Assembly (NCBI GenBank): GCA_050253335.1
Contig: JBFWJG010000004.1
Span: 1 to 64,000 of the forward strand
Source: Deferribacterales bacterium
GTDB lineage: Bacteria > Chrysiogenota > Deferribacteres > Deferribacterales > Geovibrionaceae
Direction of reading: 5' to 3'
Length of the DNA stretch: 64,000 bases
Made by a program: the position numbers. This document shows positions 14,601-29,600 of the stretch, in pieces. Each line of letters begins with the position of its first letter. Position 1 is the first letter of the stretch.

Positions 14601-17600
14601 CCTGAGCTGTTTTCTCACCCAGCATAACCCAGTACGCCTTGATATGGGGCACATTGTCCAGAACAATGCGGCTGACAGCCGCTGTCATCAGGTCTTCAAT
14701 GCCTGTTGCCGGTTTTATATGGCTGAGGAAAGTGTTCTGCGGGTGAAATGACAGAGGGATAAAGGCGAGAAAGCCTCCGGTTTTTTCCTGAAGATCGCGG
14801 ATTTTTTCCAGATGGCGCATCTTCTCCTCCCCTGTTTCGATGTGGCCGTAGAGCATGGTGGCATTGGTGAGAATCCCTTCTTTATGCGCGGTTTCGTGCA
14901 CCTCAAGCCATCTTTCCGCGGGGATCTTTTCTGGGCAAATCTCTTTGCGCACCCTAGGTTCAAAGATCTCAGCCCCGCCGCCCGGCATCATCTCAAGTCC
15001 TGCGTTTTTGAGTTTTCTGAGCACTTCCGTCAGCGAAAGTCCGGATATGGAAGCGAAATAGTCAATCTCTACAGCGCTGAAGCCTTTGATTGTTTTTTCG
15101 GGGAAAGCGGTTTTCAGCCCTTTCACCATATCGGTGTAGTAGCTGAATTTTTTCGAAGGGTGCAGACCGCCGACAATGTGAAGCTCGCTTGCGTTCGGAG
15201 CCTTGGAAGCGGCGTATTTTATGATGTCGTCCACATCCATGAACACCGCCGTTTCGTCTCCTTCATCCTTGGCAAAGGCGCAGAAGCGGCACTTGCTCAC
15301 GCATATGTCAGTGTAGTTTATATGGAGGTTATTGACATAAAAAACCTTTTTGCCCCACATCTTCTGCCGGAGCGCATCGGCCTTTTCGCCCGTAACCAGA
15401 AAATCTTCTTTGAAAAGATTGTACATACGGCTTAGATTTCCTTATCAGCAGATTATCTTACGGAAGAAAAATACAGTCTGAAAATTAACACACCTTGGTG
15501 TTTCGGGCAACCTTATTTATCCCGCCTGTATTTAATTCCTTTTTCATACATTTCCTTCCAGACCCTCAGCCCGTCAACCTCCACGGGATCCTTTTCCTTT
15601 GCTATATGTTCATTTATGAGTGCGGCCGCTTTGTCAAACTCATCATTTTCAGCATAGGCCGCCGCCAGCCTTTCGGCATTTGTGTTATCCGGCCGGAGAG
15701 AGTATGCCCTTCGTCCGTAGAGCACTGCCTTTGCCCCGTCTCTGAAATACGGGTCAGGATGGGTGGAGAGGATCCACGCCGCCTGAGAAAAGGCCTTTTC
15801 CATGGAGCTGTCCAGGATTGCCGCTGTTTCGAGATCTTTGATGCCGTCTCCGGTTTTTGAAACAGCAAAAAGCACCTGCGCCCGCTGGAAATAGCTTCCG
15901 GCATTTTTGGGTTCAAGCTCTATGGCGCGGGTCACGTCCACTATGGCCTGTTCGGGGCTCCCCGCTTTCAGGTATGCCTTTGCCCTGCCGAGGTAGGCCT
16001 CCGCGCTTTCGCCCTGCGCCTCTATCCCTCTGTTCAGATAGAAGAACGCCTGTTTTGTGTTCCCCAGTTCGGCATATGCGAGGCCGATCAGGGTATTTGC
16101 GCGGGCATAGGTTCTGGGCTTCTGAGTCAGCGCCTCATCCAGTTCCATTACCGCGTCATTGTATTTTCCGAGTAAGAAAAGGATTTCCCCTCTTCTGTAG
16201 TGCAGGTAAGCGGTGTTTTTATTTCTGCCCAGTGCTCTTGTGTATTCATAAAAGGCCCTGTCGTATTCCTTCATTGCGAAATAGGCATCCCCGAGAAGGG
16301 TTCTGTTTTCGCCTGAGTCATGTTCCTGAACGGCTTTTTCAAGATATCCGGCCGCCAGCGGCGCGTTTCCCGATTCAAGGGCGCTCAGGCCGCTTTTCCG
16401 CAGTTCAACGGCGGCTTTGGGCGCGCACGCCGCAAGGGCTGCTGCTGTGATCAATATATAAAGTCTCATGATATCTCCATAGTCGGCTTCATTAATAATA
16501 TTACTCCCTGAACACAAATAACAGAAGTTTTTTATGAAAAGAGCCACAGTTATTTTTTGTAATTATTACACACTATAACAAGTTTTATTTGTTAAATGTT
16601 TATATTCCCTCATCGGCTAAGGAGGAATGTGATGATTCTTGAAATGGCTAAAACAGGCAGATACGGCGAGGTAACGCTTACCGAGGCGGATCTGGAGCAG
16701 ATGGAGAAAAGCTTCGGCGGAAAAGTGCCCGTAACTGTGGGGCACGAGATAGCCGGAAATATGCCCGCTGCCGGATGGGTTAAAAACATCTGGGCGGAGA
16801 AGGGCGTTCTCATGGGCGAGGCGGAGCTGGGGGACTGGCTCACGGAAGCCTACGAAAAAGGGGAATACCGCAACTGGTCAATAGGCGCGAAGAGGGACGC
16901 GGACGGCAGGCTTTACCTGCACCACCTTGCGTTTCTGGGAGCTCTGCCGCCTAAGATACGCGGCCTTGAGGTTGTGGAGATGGGCGACAGCGGCGATTTC
17001 CTGACCTTTTCAGGATCCATACCCGCTTATTTCAGCGAGCTTGAAGCGCTCCGCAGGGAAAAGAGGGAGAAAAAACTCAGTGAACTCAGATCCGCATGCG
17101 AAGGGAAAATTCCCGCCGCCAAGCTGGAGCTTGTGATGGAGTTTGCTGAAAACCTTGAGGGTACGGTGAATTTCGCAGACGGAAACGAGGCGGACGCTGT
17201 GAGCGTGCTGAAGGATGTTTTTTCGTCCCTGCCGGAGCCTGTGAAGGCGGGAAAAATGAACCTGCCCGAAAGGAGCGTTTCGGCGGAGCAGAAGGGAATC
17301 TTCGGGAAAATTTAAGGAGGGGAGAAGATGGCAAAGTATGACGGAGTAATCGACAGGCGCGACATGGGTTCCGCCGGAATAATCGACGGCCGCCACCCTG
17401 CGGTGGTGAAGGTAATGCCTTTTAAGGCGGACAACGGAAAAATCGAAGCGGGGGAAATAGTCGTCCTCAATGCAGACGGGAAGGCGGACTTTTATGACGC
17501 ACAGGACGGAGGCACGCTCTCCGTTCCGGTGGGTGTCAGCATCTTCACCGTTGATACGGCAAAAGACAGCCTCGGGAGTGTTCTTGTGCACGGAACGGTC

Positions 17601-26600: not shown

Positions 26601-29600
26601 AATATGTGAGTTTTGAAAAAGCGTATAAGCACGCAGGAGGGGTGAAATGATTTCTATACTGGTTAAGATGTTCTCGGGCGCGATGCTCGGTGTGGCGAAG
26701 GCTTTTCTTACGGAAAAAATAATTACTCTGGTTGTGGTGGAGGTGCTCAAAGAGCTCGCCGCTTCAACAAAAACGACCATAGACGACCGCATAGTGAGTG
26801 AGGTTGCCGCTTCTCTTGGAATGGTGGATCTCTCCGAAATCAAAAAGAAGCTTTAAGCGGGGGACAGCATGGGAAAGAGAAGAACATCGGCTGAGATACT
26901 GAACAGCGTTTTTGAATCGGCTGACCAAAGCCTTAAAGCAAAATACAAAACAGAGGACGAAGTGCTGAACCTTGTTTTTGACCGGCAGTCCGGCAGGCTT
27001 AAAGTCGATCTGGAAGGGGGCGGTGGAAGCAAGCCTTACTCCAATCCCCTTGAAACATACGCCTCAACAGATCCTGCGGGGGTATTGGGCGGCGGACTGC
27101 TGTTCGGGAATCTGAGCGGCTCCAAGAAATGGATTGGCGGAGCTCTGGCGCAGAACGGGAAGGTTTACTGCGCGCCTAATGATGCCTCCCAGATACTTGA
27201 AATAGACCCTGTGACCCGTGAAACATCTCTCTTCGGCTCATTCAGCGGTTCCAATAAATGGATTGGCGGCGCTCTTGCGCCAAATGGAAAGATATACTGC
27301 GCGCCTTATAATTCGCCTCAGGTTCTGGAGATTGACCCCGTGGCAAAGACGGGAACTCTCTTCGGAGCCCTGAGCGGTTCGTCCAAGTGGTACGGAGCCG
27401 TGCTTGCTCCCAACGGGAAAATATACTGTGCGCCTTATAATTCGACTCAGGTTCTGGAAATTGATCCGGCGACACAGGGCACAAGGCTTTTCGGCAGTAT
27501 AAACGGAGCAAGCAAATATGTCGGCGGTGTCCTCGCCCCTGACGGGAAGATATATTTTATCCCGCTTTCAGCAGGGCAGATTATGGTTCTTGACCCGACG
27601 GCAGACTCGGTGGAGTTCTTCGGCACACTGCCTGATGATGTGCTGTATAAATGGGCATCAGGCGCTCTTGCGCCAAACGGAAAGATATACTGCGCGCCGT
27701 ATCAGGAAACACGGGTGCTTGAGATAGACCCTCTGACTCGTGAGACTGTTCTCTTCGGAGAACTGAGTGCAGGGAGCGGGAAGTGGAGCGGCGGTGCTCT
27801 CGCGCCGGACGGCAGAATATATTTTGCTCCGCTTAATTCCTCTCAGATTCTCTCTGTTGACCCTTCGTCAAGGGAAGCGAGCTTGTTCGGGAATGTCGGC
27901 GGTTCGGTGAATATGTTTGCGGGTGCGGTTGTTTCCCCGTCCGGCGGGGTAATTTTTGTTCCGAATTCATCGGCAAAGGTGCTTGAGATTCGTCAGGGCG
28001 CTCACGGCAGTCAGTGGTGGGCGCTGAACGCATACACCAATAAGTTTTAAAGGGGCGGATGATGGAAGTTTTTGAAAAATGGCTTGAGAACCTTGCGGCC
28101 TCAATGACGGATGAAGAGATAAACGGGGCAATTGCGGCGCATCTGACGGCATATGACGATGACGGGAATATAGTTTATGAGCCTTCGGCAGAGGATATTG
28201 AGGCAGTGCGGTTTGAGCATTATGCCGCGCTCCGCAGGGGTTCATACGGCTCATGGCAGGAACAGCTTGATAAACAGTATGCCGGAACATGGGAAAGCCA
28301 CGTGGCGGCAGTGAAGGCGAGGTTCGGGAAAATGTAAAAAGGTCGCAAAATTGGTTGAACGCTGTAGTAAACTCCCGTTCTCGTCTCTCTGTAAATAAAA
28401 AAGGCCTCTGATAAAAAATCAGAGGCCTTTTTTAAGTGCCGGGGGGGGGACTCGAACCCCCACAGGATTAACTCCCACAGGATCCTTAGTCCTGCGTGTC
28501 TACCAATTCCACCACCTCGGCGAGTTATAATCTCTCAAGCGAGAACGAATTTTTATCAGCTTTATCCTTTCGTGTCAACAATAAAATTTAAAAAAAATTT
28601 CAAATGCTTAAACCGTCTTTTTTACTTACAGACTTAACAAAAAACCCCGCCTGAAAAGCGGGGTCCGTGTTCTTATTTTTTATTCATTTTCGGAGCGAGG
28701 TGTCTGCTGTATTCCTTGTCCTCGTGCATTATATGGTTTTTCAGCCAGTCCTGCAGAAAGCTCATCAGGTTGAAGCCTATAACCTCTTTCCCTTTCTTGT
28801 AATTGTCAAGGAACTGCCCGACAGCTTCTTTCAGCTTGTCGTGGGATTTTATGTGGTTTGCGCTCTGGGGAAAGCCGTATTTCTGAAATGCTTTTTCCTC
28901 TGAGTCGAAGTGGTACACAGTGTATTCAACAAGCTCGTTCAGGGTGCGCTCAAGCATCTGTTTGCCTTTGTCCTGCCTGATAGCGTTGTAGAGGTTATTA
29001 ATGATGCTCACAAGCTTCTTGTGCTGCTCGTCGAACTGGTGAACCCCTGTTTCAAGGCTTTTTGACCATTTGATGAACTCGTCCCCGCCGGATGTTTTGA
29101 ACCCTGACACGCTCCCTGCAAGGCTTTTGGTTACATCCAGAAGGTTGCCGCCCGCTATGACCGATTCGTTGGCCATGTGAAGGATGTTTGCCGACATATC
29201 AGAGATTTCCACCGTACTGCTGGAAACTTCTCCGAGGGCGAGGTTTTCCTCCTCCATGGCGCGCACTATGCCGTTAAGCTGGCTTGTGAGCTCGTTTATG
29301 CTTTCCGATATTATATTGATTGAGTTAACCGATTCTCCGGAGAACTCTATTCCTTTCTCAACATTTTCCACACCTTCCTGAACCTTGCCGAAGACATCGT
29401 TAATCTTGTACTGAAGCTCCCTGATAACAGCGCCTATCTGCTCTGTGGAGTCTGTTGTTTTTCCGGCAAGCTTGCGCACTTCGTCCGCTACAACGGCAAA
29501 GCCTCTGCCGTGTTCGCCCGCTCTTGCCGCCTCGATTGCGGCGTTAAGGGCGAGAAGGTTGGTCTGATCCGCTATTTCCTTGATGGAAACGACAATATTC

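What a model noticed while it worked through the whole genome (the two positions that open the first line are those of the whole stretch)
16632..28337. GTA-like domesticated phage head-tail cluster, vertically inherited in Geovibrionaceae
A 17-gene phage structural/lysis cluster (prohead protease, decoration protein, lambda-E-type major capsid, tail genes, M15 peptidase) lies at C4:16632-28337 with no integrase, repressor or replication genes; its packaging module (small ORF g00863, large terminase g00862, Mu-type portal g00861) lies at a separate locus C15:9715-12631. Both loci are single-copy, intact and syntenic in all 15 other species genomes of the family Geovibrionaceae (4 genera) and absent from 47 genomes of the other Deferribacterales families, so this is a domesticated, vertically inherited, split gene-transfer-agent-like element rather than a prophage.
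Evidence so far: PHROGs hits for protease, decoration, major head, endolysin; capsid gene found in 15/15 other Geovibrionaceae genomes, 62-97% id tracking genus, 0/47 other Deferribacterales; TerL 15/15, 57-86% id; gene order protease..tail conserved next to the same TPR gene g00277 in 6 genomes of 4 genera; TerS-TerL-portal trio conserved in 6 genomes, 12-38 kb from the head-tail locus where both lie on one contig; all 20 genes full length, dN/dS 0.035-0.20 vs the congeneric complete genome with dS 0.7-1.8 like host flanks. No paper found that links GTAs to Deferribacterota. In a 5.8-billion-protein search all capsid homologues >=62% identical come from Geovibrio, Limisalsivibrio, Seleniivibrio, Denitrovibr [...]
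(Added by a program. Inside this text positions count along the whole contig: contig position 1 is position 1 of the stretch shown here. "Call 12" and the like, gene names such as g00115 and contig names such as C1 are that model's own, and its searches are not shown. The text may have been shortened before it was handed on; [...] marks where a part breaks off. The agent that wrote the report below was given it as the finding of a first reader that could run no searches.)

Follow-up and report, generated by a model that had tools for sequence, protein, structure and literature searches.

The report
Domesticated phage particle genes, family-wide
A whole bacterial family has kept, for as long as the family has existed, a set of former phage genes that can build a DNA-filled head with a stubby tail, which looks like a new, independently evolved gene-transfer-agent-like system in a phylum where none is known.

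Summary
Window 16632-28337 (+) carries 17 tightly packed phage genes: protease, decoration protein, E-type capsid, neck and tail-tip proteins, M15 peptidase, a holin-like protein and a fibre. TerS, TerL and a Mu-type portal lie on contig C15. Both loci occur in 15 of 15 other family genomes, and the capsid in 0 of 47 genomes of the order's other families. The element tree matches the host tree. dN/dS is 0.04-0.20, like the host flanks.

New here:
- The closest phage-type relative is a 42.9-kb siphovirus-type contig. Against it, the element has cleanly lost the MuF-like protein, Neck1, tail tube, chaperone and tape measure. It keeps a tube-fold ring and tip proteins that follow the tape measure in phages. 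A stubby tail is inferred.
- The two loci share a promoter-like motif that is nearly unique genome-wide.
- In two genera the motif search found a third locus, lysozyme plus holin. It replaces the in-cluster M15/holin pair of the window's genus.
- Two of 15 genomes carry lesions, so "intact in all" is too strong.

Best reading: a domesticated, co-regulated, multi-locus GTA-like viriform. Particles, packaged DNA and transfer remain untested.

The parts
16576..16606 (+). Promoter-like motif TAACAA-N19-TATATT, 25 nt upstream of the g01 start. The same gapped motif lies 35 nt upstream of TerS on C15.
   Evidence: TAACAA.{18,20}TATATT has only 2 hits in the 2.58-Mb genome, and these are the two sites. 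The positions were read. Registered variants occur upstream of g01, TerS or the lysozyme gene in 36 of 43 regions by regex. The sigma-70 consensus scan finds nothing here.
16632..17315 (+). g01, head maturation protease with a short C-terminal helical (scaffold-like) part
   Evidence: phrog_976 6e-24. 49% identical to the 388-aa protease of viral contig L162, but lacks its middle ~160 residues. dN/dS 0.09.
17328..17690 (+). g02, head decoration protein (lambda gpD-like)
   Evidence: phrog_49 1e-7; PF02924 weak. Present in 15 of 15 genomes at 120-123 aa.
17704..18690 (+). g03, major capsid protein, lambda-E type
   Evidence: PF03864 8e-48, 163.7 bits. 62-97% identity in 15 of 15 genomes. dN/dS 0.03-0.045.
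18695..19039 (+). g04, head-tail adaptor candidate
   Evidence: 35% identical to the L162 ORF that precedes Neck1. No family hit. The role is inferred from position.
19062..19442 (+). g05, neck or tail-terminator-position protein
   Evidence: hhalign probability 97%, E 7e-11, 117 columns, to the L162 125-aa ORF that lies directly before the major tail protein gene. The role is inferred from position.
19447..20103 (+). g06, accessory fibre-like protein. It is 390-422 aa and placed after g08 in genera g2 and g4, and absent in G003.
   Evidence: Weak phrog_8469 'tail fiber' and phrog_6427 hits. Position and length vary.
20113..20487 (+). g07, tail-tube-fold ring protein (lambda gpM / Dit / tube-initiator type)
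   Evidence: phrog_4408 2e-16. Its homologues directly follow the tape measure gene in phage PG28, RS138 and contig L162. AF2 pLDDT 78. All 50 top VIA entries are tube-fold proteins, including 8iyk_M with Z 7.5, rmsd 2.8 and 99 residues aligned.
20496..21455 (+). g08, tail-tip protein, the most conserved tail gene (41-92% identity)
   Evidence: phrog_6128, phrog_9261 and phrog_24675. It is the gene after the g07 homologue in PG28, RS138 and L162. AF2 pLDDT 66; only generic tail beta-barrel matches.
21459..23129 (+). g09, large tail-tip or hub candidate, fast-evolving (20-25% identity between genera)
   Evidence: No family hit. The Atlas feature search gives Sipho_Gp37 and YQBQ clusters as leads only.
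23130..24353 (+). g10 and g11, paralogous tail-tip proteins; g11 has a C-terminal carboxypeptidase-regulatory-like beta-sandwich
   Evidence: Both hit phrog_24905. A homologue lies in the PG28 post-tape-measure module. PF13620 reaches 34 bits in the g4 orthologue.
24353..26241 (+). g12 and g13, tail proteins of unknown fold
   Evidence: No family hit. Present in 15 of 15 genomes, with g12 split in G003. dN/dS 0.14.
26222..26650 (+). g14, M15 peptidoglycan peptidase (endolysin); present only in genera g1 and g3
   Evidence: phrog_894 2e-10; PF08291 22.0 bits, below its 23.2 cut-off. Distribution.
26647..26856 (+). g15, 69-aa hydrophobic, holin-like protein. Its homologue follows the lysozyme gene at the separate lysis locus of g2 and g4.
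   Evidence: phrog_2738 and phrog_402. Sequence. 33-47% identical ORFs lie downstream of the lysozyme in 10 of 11 genomes. The holin role is inferred.
26869..28050 (+). g16, receptor-binding fibre: a conserved ~50-aa N-terminal anchor plus a swappable C-terminal domain (here a DUF6923 beta-propeller)
   Evidence: PF21959 2.5e-10. Only residues 1-50 are conserved across genera. Other genera carry a beta-helix, a tail-fibre domain or Ig domains. dN 0.32 even against the closest genome, where neighbouring genes show 0.01-0.1.
28059..28337 (+). g17, small protein after the fibre (fibre chaperone?)
   Evidence: phrog_9114 3e-7. Found in G005 and G007. The role is a guess.

Best explanation
This is the head-tail (and, in this genus, lysis) operon of a domesticated phage-derived particle system, a GTA-like viriform. 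It was fixed in the common ancestor of the family that the tool outputs name through Limisalsivibrio, Seleniivibrio and Denitrovibrio, and has been inherited vertically since.

Origin (shown by homology). The source was a siphovirus with a Mu-type portal and a lambda-E-type capsid. Its packaging operon (TerS-TerL-portal) and head-tail operon have been separated by host genes.

Proposed working (inferred).
1. An unidentified host-encoded factor switches on one non-canonical promoter type, which is present in front of the packaging operon, the head-tail operon and, in two genera, a separate lysozyme-holin operon.
2. The protease/scaffold, capsid and decoration proteins build a head on the portal.
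3. The T4-type large terminase fills the head with DNA by the headful.
4. g04 and g05 close the neck.
5. Because tube, chaperone and tape measure genes are gone, the tube-fold ring g07 and the tip proteins g08-g13 dock directly under the neck. This gives a stubby tail that carries the exchangeable fibre g16.
6. The holin and a peptidoglycan hydrolase lyse the producer cell.
7. With no replication, integration or transposition genes, and with its genes at two or three loci, the particle can only carry host DNA to cells recognised by g16.
For: Vertical, family-wide, host-like evolution.
- The capsid and TerL are each in 15 of 15 other family genomes. The capsid is in 0 of 47 genomes of the order's other families.
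- The cluster sits next to the same TPR gene in 15 of 15 genomes.
- ftsA lies 15-41 kb from the capsid gene on the same contig in 15 of 16 genomes.
- Neighbours of the G001 packaging trio map to the same G000 contig.
- The element tree (5 proteins, 1725 columns) and the host tree (Lon + FtsA, 1222 columns) have the same topology, apart from weakly supported nodes inside g2. Pairwise distances correlate at r = 0.97 over 120 pairs.
- dN/dS is 0.04-0.20 in the 19 genes scored against G007, with dS like the host flanks. TerL scores 0.047 against G006.

Functional coherence.
- The gapped motif TAACAA-N19-TATATT occurs only twice in the 2.58-Mb genome, in front of g01 and of TerS, in the right orientation.
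- In five genomes of g2 and g4, TTAMACATAT-N16-17-KTANNAT has 10 hits and the reversed control has 0. Nine hits lie in front of TerS or g01. The tenth led to a Phage_lysozyme gene plus a g15-like holin gene 1.17 Mb away.
- That lysis locus is present in 4 of 4 g2 and 7 of 7 g4 genomes, which lack the in-cluster M15/g15 pair. It is absent from g3 and from g1, apart from one prophage copy.
- The fibre keeps its ~50-aa N-terminus while its C-terminal domain is swapped.

Origin and losses.
- Eighty viral contigs have related heads with TerL-portal-protease-capsid contiguous.
- Contig L162 has the order g04-like, Neck1, g05-like, major tail protein, chaperone, 902-aa tape measure, g07-like, g08-like.
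- The element has none of the intervening genes, except a tube-like gene in G008 only.
- No integrase, MuA or Mor is conserved with the element.
Against: - No particle, packaged DNA or transfer has been seen. No RNA data exist for this organism.
- The missing tape measure and tube are a real difficulty for DNA delivery, because the siphovirus-derived RcGTA has a tape measure. 'Not found' rests on specific queries: one Pfam family, two PHROGs, and tblastn with three phages' proteins. Tape measures are very diverse, so one could be encoded elsewhere.
- The promoter patterns were derived from the sites they match. In g1 the looser pattern has as many chance hits as the reversed control. No regulator has been identified.
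- Two of 15 genomes (G001, G003) have lesions in tail genes, so the function can be lost.
- If the head kept the size of its phage relatives (contigs of 37-45 kb), a headful could span both loci in genus g2. The 'cannot package itself' criterion is therefore not shown by geometry.
Confidence: 0.6

Rival explanations
1. PBSX-like defective-phage 'killer' particle. The same domesticated genes make DNA-filled particles that are released by lysis and bind related cells. They kill or damage those cells instead of delivering usable DNA, which gives a competitive rather than a gene-exchange benefit.
For: Everything that shows domestication, co-regulation, lysis and a fast-changing receptor-binding fibre fits this reading equally well. 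The lack of a tape measure and tube makes productive DNA injection less certain. A paper treats PBSX as a GTA-like element that packages 13.4-kb host fragments (PMC12946183, passages read).
Against: No sheath or contractile-tail genes and no bacteriocin-type effector were seen in the cluster. Terminase, portal and capsid are among the most conserved genes of the element (dN/dS 0.03-0.06), which would be unexpected if the DNA were irrelevant. That PBSX kills is recalled, not taken from a call.
Confidence: 0.15
2. Helper-dependent or interference element. The chromosome supplies head, neck, tail tip and fibre. The missing tube, chaperone and tape measure come from an infecting or resident Mu-like siphovirus, so complete particles form only during such an infection. 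This would be a fixed, satellite-like hijacker or defence.
For: The lost genes form exactly one contiguous assembly block, while the proteins that contact it on both sides are kept. Mu-like prophages with related heads do occur in the family: in G000 on C1 and C9, in G004 and in G012. G008 still has a tube-like gene.
Against: Mu-like prophages were found in only 3 of 16 genomes, and a phrog_973 tape measure in only 2 of 16. The element has its own promoter type and lysis genes, so it does not look dependent on a helper's late programme. No case of borrowing only a tube and tape measure was looked for in the literature.
Confidence: 0.08
3. Old cryptic prophage remnant with no particle function. 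It would be kept by chance, or because one or two genes were co-opted.
For: Tube, tape measure, MuF-like and Neck1 genes are gone. Two genomes show further decay. One metagenomic copy has an interrupted capsid gene.
Against: The 19 genes scored against G007 have dN/dS of 0.20 or less at dS 0.7-1.8, and TerL scores 0.047 against G006. The core genes remain full length in 13 of 15 genomes across four genera, whose Lon and FtsA differ by up to 28%. The capsid is about as conserved as FtsA (62-67% against 65-68% between genera). The promoter motif co-varies between the loci, with one form in g1/g3 and another in g2/g4, at two or three sites each.
Confidence: 0.07
4. Active temperate phage that repeatedly integrates at the same site in these genera.
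For: The gene content is phage-like, and IMG/VR lists one such host fragment as viral.
Against: There is no integrase, transposase, replication or lysogeny module at the loci. Packaging and head genes are separated by 12-38 kb of host genes, including Lon, and in g2 they are inverted relative to each other. The trees are congruent with the host. dS equals that of the host flanks.
Confidence: 0.01

Closest known systems
RcGTA-type gene transfer agents of Alphaproteobacteria (Rhodobacter capsulatus GTA)
   Same: A chromosomal head-tail cluster without replication or integration genes. Further loci lie elsewhere; GTAs are typically multi-locus (review PMC11841831, passage read). Vertical inheritance with the hosts. 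Release by an endolysin and holin encoded at a separate locus (recalled). A fast-evolving fibre.
   Different: An independent origin. Here the capsid is lambda-E type (PF03864) and the portal Mu type (PF06074), and no RcGTA-type family was hit. TerS-TerL-portal are detached from the head genes. There is no tube or tape measure, whereas the RcGTA structure paper discusses its tape measure (PMC7296036, search listing only). The phylum is different. No function has been shown.
FpGTA, the GTA-like element of Faecalibacterium (PMC12946183)
   Same: A GTA-like element outside Alphaproteobacteria, encoded by two operons about 125 kb apart, conserved within a genus and short-tailed (passages read).
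   Different: FpGTA is described there as podovirus-like and has measured packaging of 8.4-8.9 kb. The present element is derived from a siphovirus by loss of tube and tape measure. It has a decoration protein and a full tail-tip module, spans a whole family, and has no packaging data. No sequence comparison with FpGTA was made.
Siphoviruses with a Mu-type portal and E-type capsid, e.g. viral contig IMGVR_UViG_3300028030_000027 (L162); Ralstonia phage RS138 and Vibrio phage vB_VpS_PG28 for the tail tip
   Same: Homologous portal (47% identity), protease (55%), capsid (41%), g04, g05, g07 (42%) and g08 (47%), in the same order. g07, g08 and g10 are homologous to the genes after the tape measure in PG28 and RS138.
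   Different: The phages are contiguous 40-80-kb genomes with a MuF-like protein, Neck1, major tail protein, chaperone and tape measure. RS138 is annotated with Mu-like genes. The element lacks all of these, is split, and is fixed in the host chromosome.
PBSX-like defective prophages of Bacillus
   Same: A conserved, non-propagating, lysis-released particle that packages host DNA (PMC12946183).
   Different: PBSX is one contiguous prophage-like region with a contractile tail and its own repressor (recalled). Here there are two or three loci, no sheath was seen, and no long tail is encoded.

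Membership tests
Gene transfer agent (functional class) | Chromosomal phage structural and packaging genes without replication, integration or lysogeny modules | tested here: met
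   Integrases lie only on other contigs. MuA occurs only in non-conserved prophages.
Gene transfer agent (functional class) | Vertical inheritance with the host and purifying selection | tested here: met
   Present in 15 of 15 family genomes and 0 of 47 genomes of the order's other families. Congruent trees and r = 0.97. dN/dS 0.04-0.20.
Gene transfer agent (functional class) | Production under host control, with dispersed loci co-regulated | tested here: inconclusive
   A promoter-like motif is shared at two or three loci. No regulator was found (Mor in 3 of 16 genomes). No expression data exist.
Gene transfer agent (functional class) | Particles package random host DNA, less than is needed to encode the particle | not testable with these tools
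   Needs purified particles and sequencing. Related heads come from contigs of up to 37-45 kb, so capacity cannot be argued from sequence.
Gene transfer agent (functional class) | Delivery of packaged DNA to recipient cells | not testable with these tools
   Needs transfer assays.
RcGTA-like viriforms | Homology to the RcGTA head-tail genes | tested here: not met
   The Pfam scan of all 17 proteins gives PF03864 for the capsid and nothing of RcGTA type. The portal is PF06074. Which Pfam families mark RcGTA is recalled, not checked here.
Long non-contractile (siphovirus) tail | Major tail (tube) protein, assembly chaperone and tape measure between the neck and tail-tip genes | tested here: not met
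   g05 is followed by g06/g07 or directly by g07. A phrog_807 tube-like gene occurs only in G008. PF10145 and phrog_807 were not found in G000. tblastn with the PG28, RS138 and L162 tube, chaperone and tape measure proteins gave no hit. phrog_973 is in 2 of 16 genomes, in other prophages. Genome-wide this means 'not found with these queries'.
Siphovirus tail-tip module | Tube-fold ring plus the next tip protein, homologous to the genes that follow the tape measure | tested here: met
   For the g07 fold, (Z 7-8.9, full length, 50 of 50 top entries with the tube fold).
Mu-like transposable prophage | MuA/MuB transposition genes and a Mor/C late activator together with the Mu-type portal | tested here: not met
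   The portal is Mu type, but MuA and Mor occur in only 3 of 16 genomes, at other loci.
PBSX-like or contractile-tail particle | Sheath and contractile baseplate genes | not tested
   No sheath family was searched genome-wide. None of the cluster proteins hit a sheath family.

The most novel reading that the evidence does not exclude
The family makes a working gene transfer agent of a morphotype not described before. It would have a decorated head whose neck is plugged directly by a siphovirus tail tip, with no tube and no tape measure. It would be encoded by two or three chromosomal operons that answer to one dedicated, co-evolving promoter and an unknown activator. This would be the first GTA of the phylum Deferribacterota, and a natural example of a long-tailed phage turned into a short-tailed DNA-delivery particle.
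Probability: 0.35. Interest if true: 0.85.

Novelty: new variant of a known kind. Interest (0 to 1): 0.74.

Why it matters
Few independent GTA lineages are known, and most work concerns Alphaproteobacteria (PMC12946183 and PMC11841831, passages read). Four features would make a family-wide element in Deferribacterota useful if it works:
- It offers an independent replicate of phage domestication.
- It has a clear phage-type outgroup that shows which genes were discarded.
- It has a compact, searchable promoter signature.
- It predicts that a siphovirus tip can dock on a neck without a tube or tape measure. That bears on how tail length and DNA delivery are coupled.

Cultured isolates exist under the names in the tool output (Limisalsivibrio acetivorans, Seleniivibrio woodruffii, Denitrovibrio acetiphilus), so the predictions can be tested directly.

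Tried and rejected
- Complex prediction of g05 with g07 gave no verdict; it counts neither for nor against docking.
- No RNA run holds the stretch ('no RNA holder listed'), so expression could not be examined.
- The search of earlier findings was not open.
- The PF03354 TerL family search of the genome found nothing, because TerL here is of the Terminase_6 type.
- tblastn of the capsid against 50,697 phage records gave no match at 1e-5.
- Profile searches of g05, g07, g08 and g09 against PDB sequences gave nothing below E 0.2.
- The g08 model (pLDDT 66) matched only a generic beta-barrel found in many tail proteins. No role could be assigned from it.
- The Atlas hits for g09 are leads only.
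- A tblastn hit on C7 proved to be the flagellar hook FlgE, not a phage locus. A hit on C17 was spurious.
- The C1 region of G000 is a separate Mu-like remnant that is not conserved in the family. It was rejected as a third locus of the element.
- Mor/C as the activator of the shared promoter was rejected, because it is present in only 3 of 16 genomes.
- Six further relaxed-motif sites in G000 lie inside genes or before nothing relevant.
- The extra g1 hits of the loose pattern equal the control rate.
- The first dN/dS script timed out and was rerun. In the rerun, TPR and PilZ (all three genomes) and TerL (two of three) gave NA, because my ORF-extension step failed. They were not scored.

Full report
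**1. What is in the window**

Between a TPR gene (15513-16547, minus strand) and an MCP-hemerythrin chemoreceptor gene (28673-30310, minus strand) lie 17 plus-strand ORFs with almost no intergenic space.

- PHROGs and Pfam identify a head maturation protease (g01), a lambda-D-like decoration protein (g02) and a lambda-E-type major capsid protein (g03, PF03864, 8e-48).
- They also identify an M15 peptidase (g14) and, for most other genes, phage families of unknown or 'tail' function.
- g15 is a 69-residue hydrophobic protein placed after the peptidase, like a holin.
- g16 is a beta-propeller protein (DUF6923).
- The real start of g01 is 16632, behind an AAGGAGG site.
- Further out lie ordinary host genes: Lon, a radical-SAM enzyme, ftsZ, ftsA, ftsQ, ddl and murC.

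The packaging genes are on contig C15: TerS (phrog_1206), TerL (Terminase_6N/6C) and a Mu-type portal (PF06074, 3e-88). The five Phage_integrase matches in the genome are on other contigs.

**2. Distribution and inheritance**

- The capsid gene is present in 15 of 15 other genomes of the family (four genera, 62-97% identity). It is absent from 47 of 47 genomes of the order's other families and from 2 of 2 of a further family. One of three genomes of the most distant family has a 40% identical copy.
- TerL is in 15 of 15 genomes. The three 'internal stops' lie upstream of the true start.
- I fetched both loci from all 15 genomes. The cluster lies next to the TPR gene in 15 of 15, and the TerS-TerL-portal trio is intact in 15 of 15.
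- ftsA is 15-41 kb from the capsid gene on the same contig in 15 of 16 genomes.
- The neighbours of the trio in G001 map to the same G000 contig.
- A tree of five element proteins and a tree of Lon + FtsA have the same topology, apart from weakly supported nodes within one genus. The 120 pairwise distances correlate at r = 0.97, and the element evolves about 1.6-3 times faster than these two slow host proteins.
- Nei-Gojobori dN/dS against three congeneric genomes is 0.03-0.26 for the element and 0.014-0.17 for host flanks, with similar dS.
- In the 5.8-billion-protein search, the named hits at 62% identity or more are Limisalsivibrio acetivorans, a Deferribacterales MAG, Seleniivibrio woodruffii and two Denitrovibrio. 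Below that, a gradient of unnamed metagenomic and other-phylum capsids begins at 56%.

- G001 has a DDE transposase between g11 and g12, a truncated g11 and no fibre.
- G003 has a split g12 and lacks the g06-like gene.
- G006 lacks g16 and g17.

**3. Where it came from and what was lost**

- Eighty IMG/VR contigs carry related heads (31-46% identical capsids). Their order is the usual contiguous TerL, portal, 2-3 kb, protease, decoration, capsid. The longer contigs are 37-45 kb.
- Two family genomes and one distant genome hold such contiguous head modules. The two inside the family sit with MuA-like transposase and Mor genes, so they are Mu-like prophages.
- The best phage-type relative is a 42.9-kb contig, L162. 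It reads TerL, portal, MuF-like minor head protein (phrog_220), protease, decoration and capsid. Then follow a 426-aa ORF, a g04-like ORF and Neck1 (phrog_26). The tail block is a g05-like ORF, major tail protein (phrog_807, 9e-43), chaperone (phrog_1442), a 902-aa tape measure (phrog_973), a g07-like ORF and a g08-like ORF.
- g05 matches its counterpart by profile comparison (97%, E 7e-11).
- g07, g08 and g10/g11 are also homologous to the genes that directly follow the tape measure in Vibrio phage vB_VpS_PG28 and Ralstonia phage RS138.
- The g07 model (pLDDT 78) has the tail-tube fold over its whole length. All 50 best VIA entries are tube, tube-initiator, Dit or Hcp proteins. They include the 109-residue lambda tail-tip chain 8iyk_M (Z 7.5) and a T1 tip chain (Z 7.1). 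These Z values are middling, so the fold call also leans on the consistency of the hits and on gene position.

Relative to its phage kin, the element has lost the MuF-like gene, Neck1, the tube, the chaperone and the tape measure. Only G008 keeps a tube-like gene, in the expected place.

Searches for these genes elsewhere found no conserved copy:
- PF10145 and phrog_807 in G000;
- tblastn of three phages' proteins against G000;
- phrog_973 across the family, found in 2 of 16 genomes, both in other prophages.

This is 'not found with these queries', not proof of absence. The inferred particle has a head, a two-protein neck and a tail tip without a shaft.

**4. Signs that the parts work together**

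- In G000, TAACAA-N19-TATATT occurs in front of g01 (16576-16606) and in front of TerS, and nowhere else in 2.58 Mb on either strand.
- In genera g2 and g4 the corresponding box is TTA(A/C)ACATAT-N16-17-(G/T)TAnnAT. In five whole genomes it has ten hits against none for the reversed control. Nine of the ten lie in front of TerS or g01.
- The tenth hit, 1.17 Mb away in G001, lies in front of a Phage_lysozyme gene (PF00959, 46 bits) followed by an 85-aa ORF homologous to g15.
- This lysozyme locus is present in all 11 genomes of g2 and g4, exactly the genera whose cluster lacks the M15 and g15 pair. By eye it carries the box in 11 of 11, and a g15-like ORF follows in 10 of 11.
- A single relaxed expression finds a site in the same register in 36 of the 43 upstream regions.
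- The distance from the AACA core to the -10-like hexamer is the same in all genera, although the upstream half differs between g1/g3 and g2/g4. The loci have therefore changed together.
- The spacing does not fit a sigma-70 -35 element, and the consensus scan finds no promoter there. I therefore infer an activator or alternative sigma factor. Mor/C is not it.

Caveats: the patterns were read off the sites they match, and the short g1 pattern alone is no rarer than its control. The independent weight lies in three observations. The longer patterns are absent elsewhere, the box co-varies between loci, and the pattern search found a lysis operon without using homology.

The fibre g16 keeps about 50 N-terminal residues in all genera. 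Its C-terminal part is a beta-propeller, a beta-helix, a tail-fibre domain or Ig domains in different genera. It is the fastest-evolving gene even between the closest genomes. This is the usual behaviour of a receptor-binding protein that is in use.

**5. Interpretation**

Shown:
- a phage-derived set of about 20 genes, fixed in the family ancestor;
- vertical inheritance and purifying selection;
- a split into two or three operons with a common upstream box;
- complete head assembly, DNA packaging, neck, tail tip, fibre and lysis functions;
- no means of replication, integration or transposition.

Inferred:
- particles are made and filled by the headful (T4-type terminase family; the packaging mode is recalled knowledge);
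- the tip docks on the neck without a tube;
- producer cells lyse;
- host DNA reaches other cells.

I put 0.6 on the GTA-like reading as worded. The rivals:
- a PBSX-like killer particle, 0.15;
- a helper-dependent element that borrows a tube and tape measure from Mu-like phages, 0.08;
- a functionless remnant, 0.07;
- an active phage, 0.01.

A recalled point fits the split. In phage Mu the late genes are read from several activator-dependent promoters, one in front of the lysis-packaging genes and another in front of the protease-capsid genes. The break between portal and protease would then fall at a natural operon boundary. I did not check this in a paper.

**6. Literature**

- Full-text searches for 'gene transfer agent' with 'Deferribacter*', or with the four genus names, returned no paper that links the two in title or abstract. 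Only listings were read.
- The Denitrovibrio acetiphilus genome paper contains none of the words phage, prophage, capsid or terminase.
- A 2026 paper describes FpGTA as the first podovirus-like GTA-like element, with two operons 125 kb apart (PMC12946183, passages).
- A 2024 review states that GTAs are typically multi-locus and hard to tell from remnants (PMC11841831, one passage).
- Supplements were not consulted.

**7. Verdict**

It is extended by the tail anatomy, the phage outgroup, the shared promoter box and the third locus. The element is a new variant of a known kind. Its interest is high for a purely computational finding, because it is directly testable in cultured isolates.

Noticed in passing
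G000 contig C15:6326-8900 and 12721-16619 (locus L001): In genera g1 and g3 the packaging trio is flanked by conserved genes. On one side are three CI/LexA-like HTH regulators (two with an S24 peptidase domain), a PilZ gene and a small ORF, u108. On the other side, directly upstream of TerS and co-directional with it, are two paralogous histidine-kinase-like genes (weak HisKA/HATPase_c). They are candidate regulators. They were not found next to the trio in g2 and g4, although a u108 homologue lies between the two loci in g2.
   Followed up: partly
G000 contig C1:80715-93828 (L202, L203) and C9:about 45974-50963: Two Mu-like prophage remnants. They carry a repressor, a MuA-like transposase (the two copies are 75% identical), MuB-like and Gam genes, a Mor-like activator, an oddly placed Neck1-like gene and a 205-aa protease fragment of the same PHROG as g01. 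MuA and Mor occur in only 3 of 16 family genomes.
   Followed up: partly
G000 contig C7:45768-48599 (L079:9769-12600, minus strand): The 943-aa flagellar hook protein FlgE carries an inserted domain about 31% identical over 119 residues to the C-terminal domain of the phage tail-tip protein g08 and its homologues.
   Followed up: no
L118/L121 (IMGVR_UViG_3300042273_000919): This 15.9-kb 'viral' contig is host chromosome from a close relative of G004. It contains the TPR gene plus the whole cluster at 96-100% identity. Its capsid gene is interrupted: residues about 103-140 are missing and the gene is read as two ORFs. This is either a real pseudogene or an assembly error.
   Followed up: no
Loci L209-L219, about 30-120 nt upstream of the lysozyme start: The long leader of the lysozyme-holin operon in g2 and g4 holds a conserved inverted repeat (ATGAAGA ... 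TCTTCAT) around a G+C-rich stem, just before the ribosome-binding site. It could be an attenuator or a translational switch.
   Followed up: no
L042:14236-15912 (G006): In G006 the fibre g16 and g17 are replaced by unrelated ORFs of 148 and 405 aa, without the conserved N-terminal anchor.
   Followed up: no
window 17000-28000: The cluster is slightly richer in G+C (0.52-0.58) than its flanks (0.46-0.52) and has positive GC skew throughout.
   Followed up: no
window 28642-28666: A hairpin that can act as a terminator on both strands lies between the end of the cluster and the convergent chemoreceptor gene.
   Followed up: no
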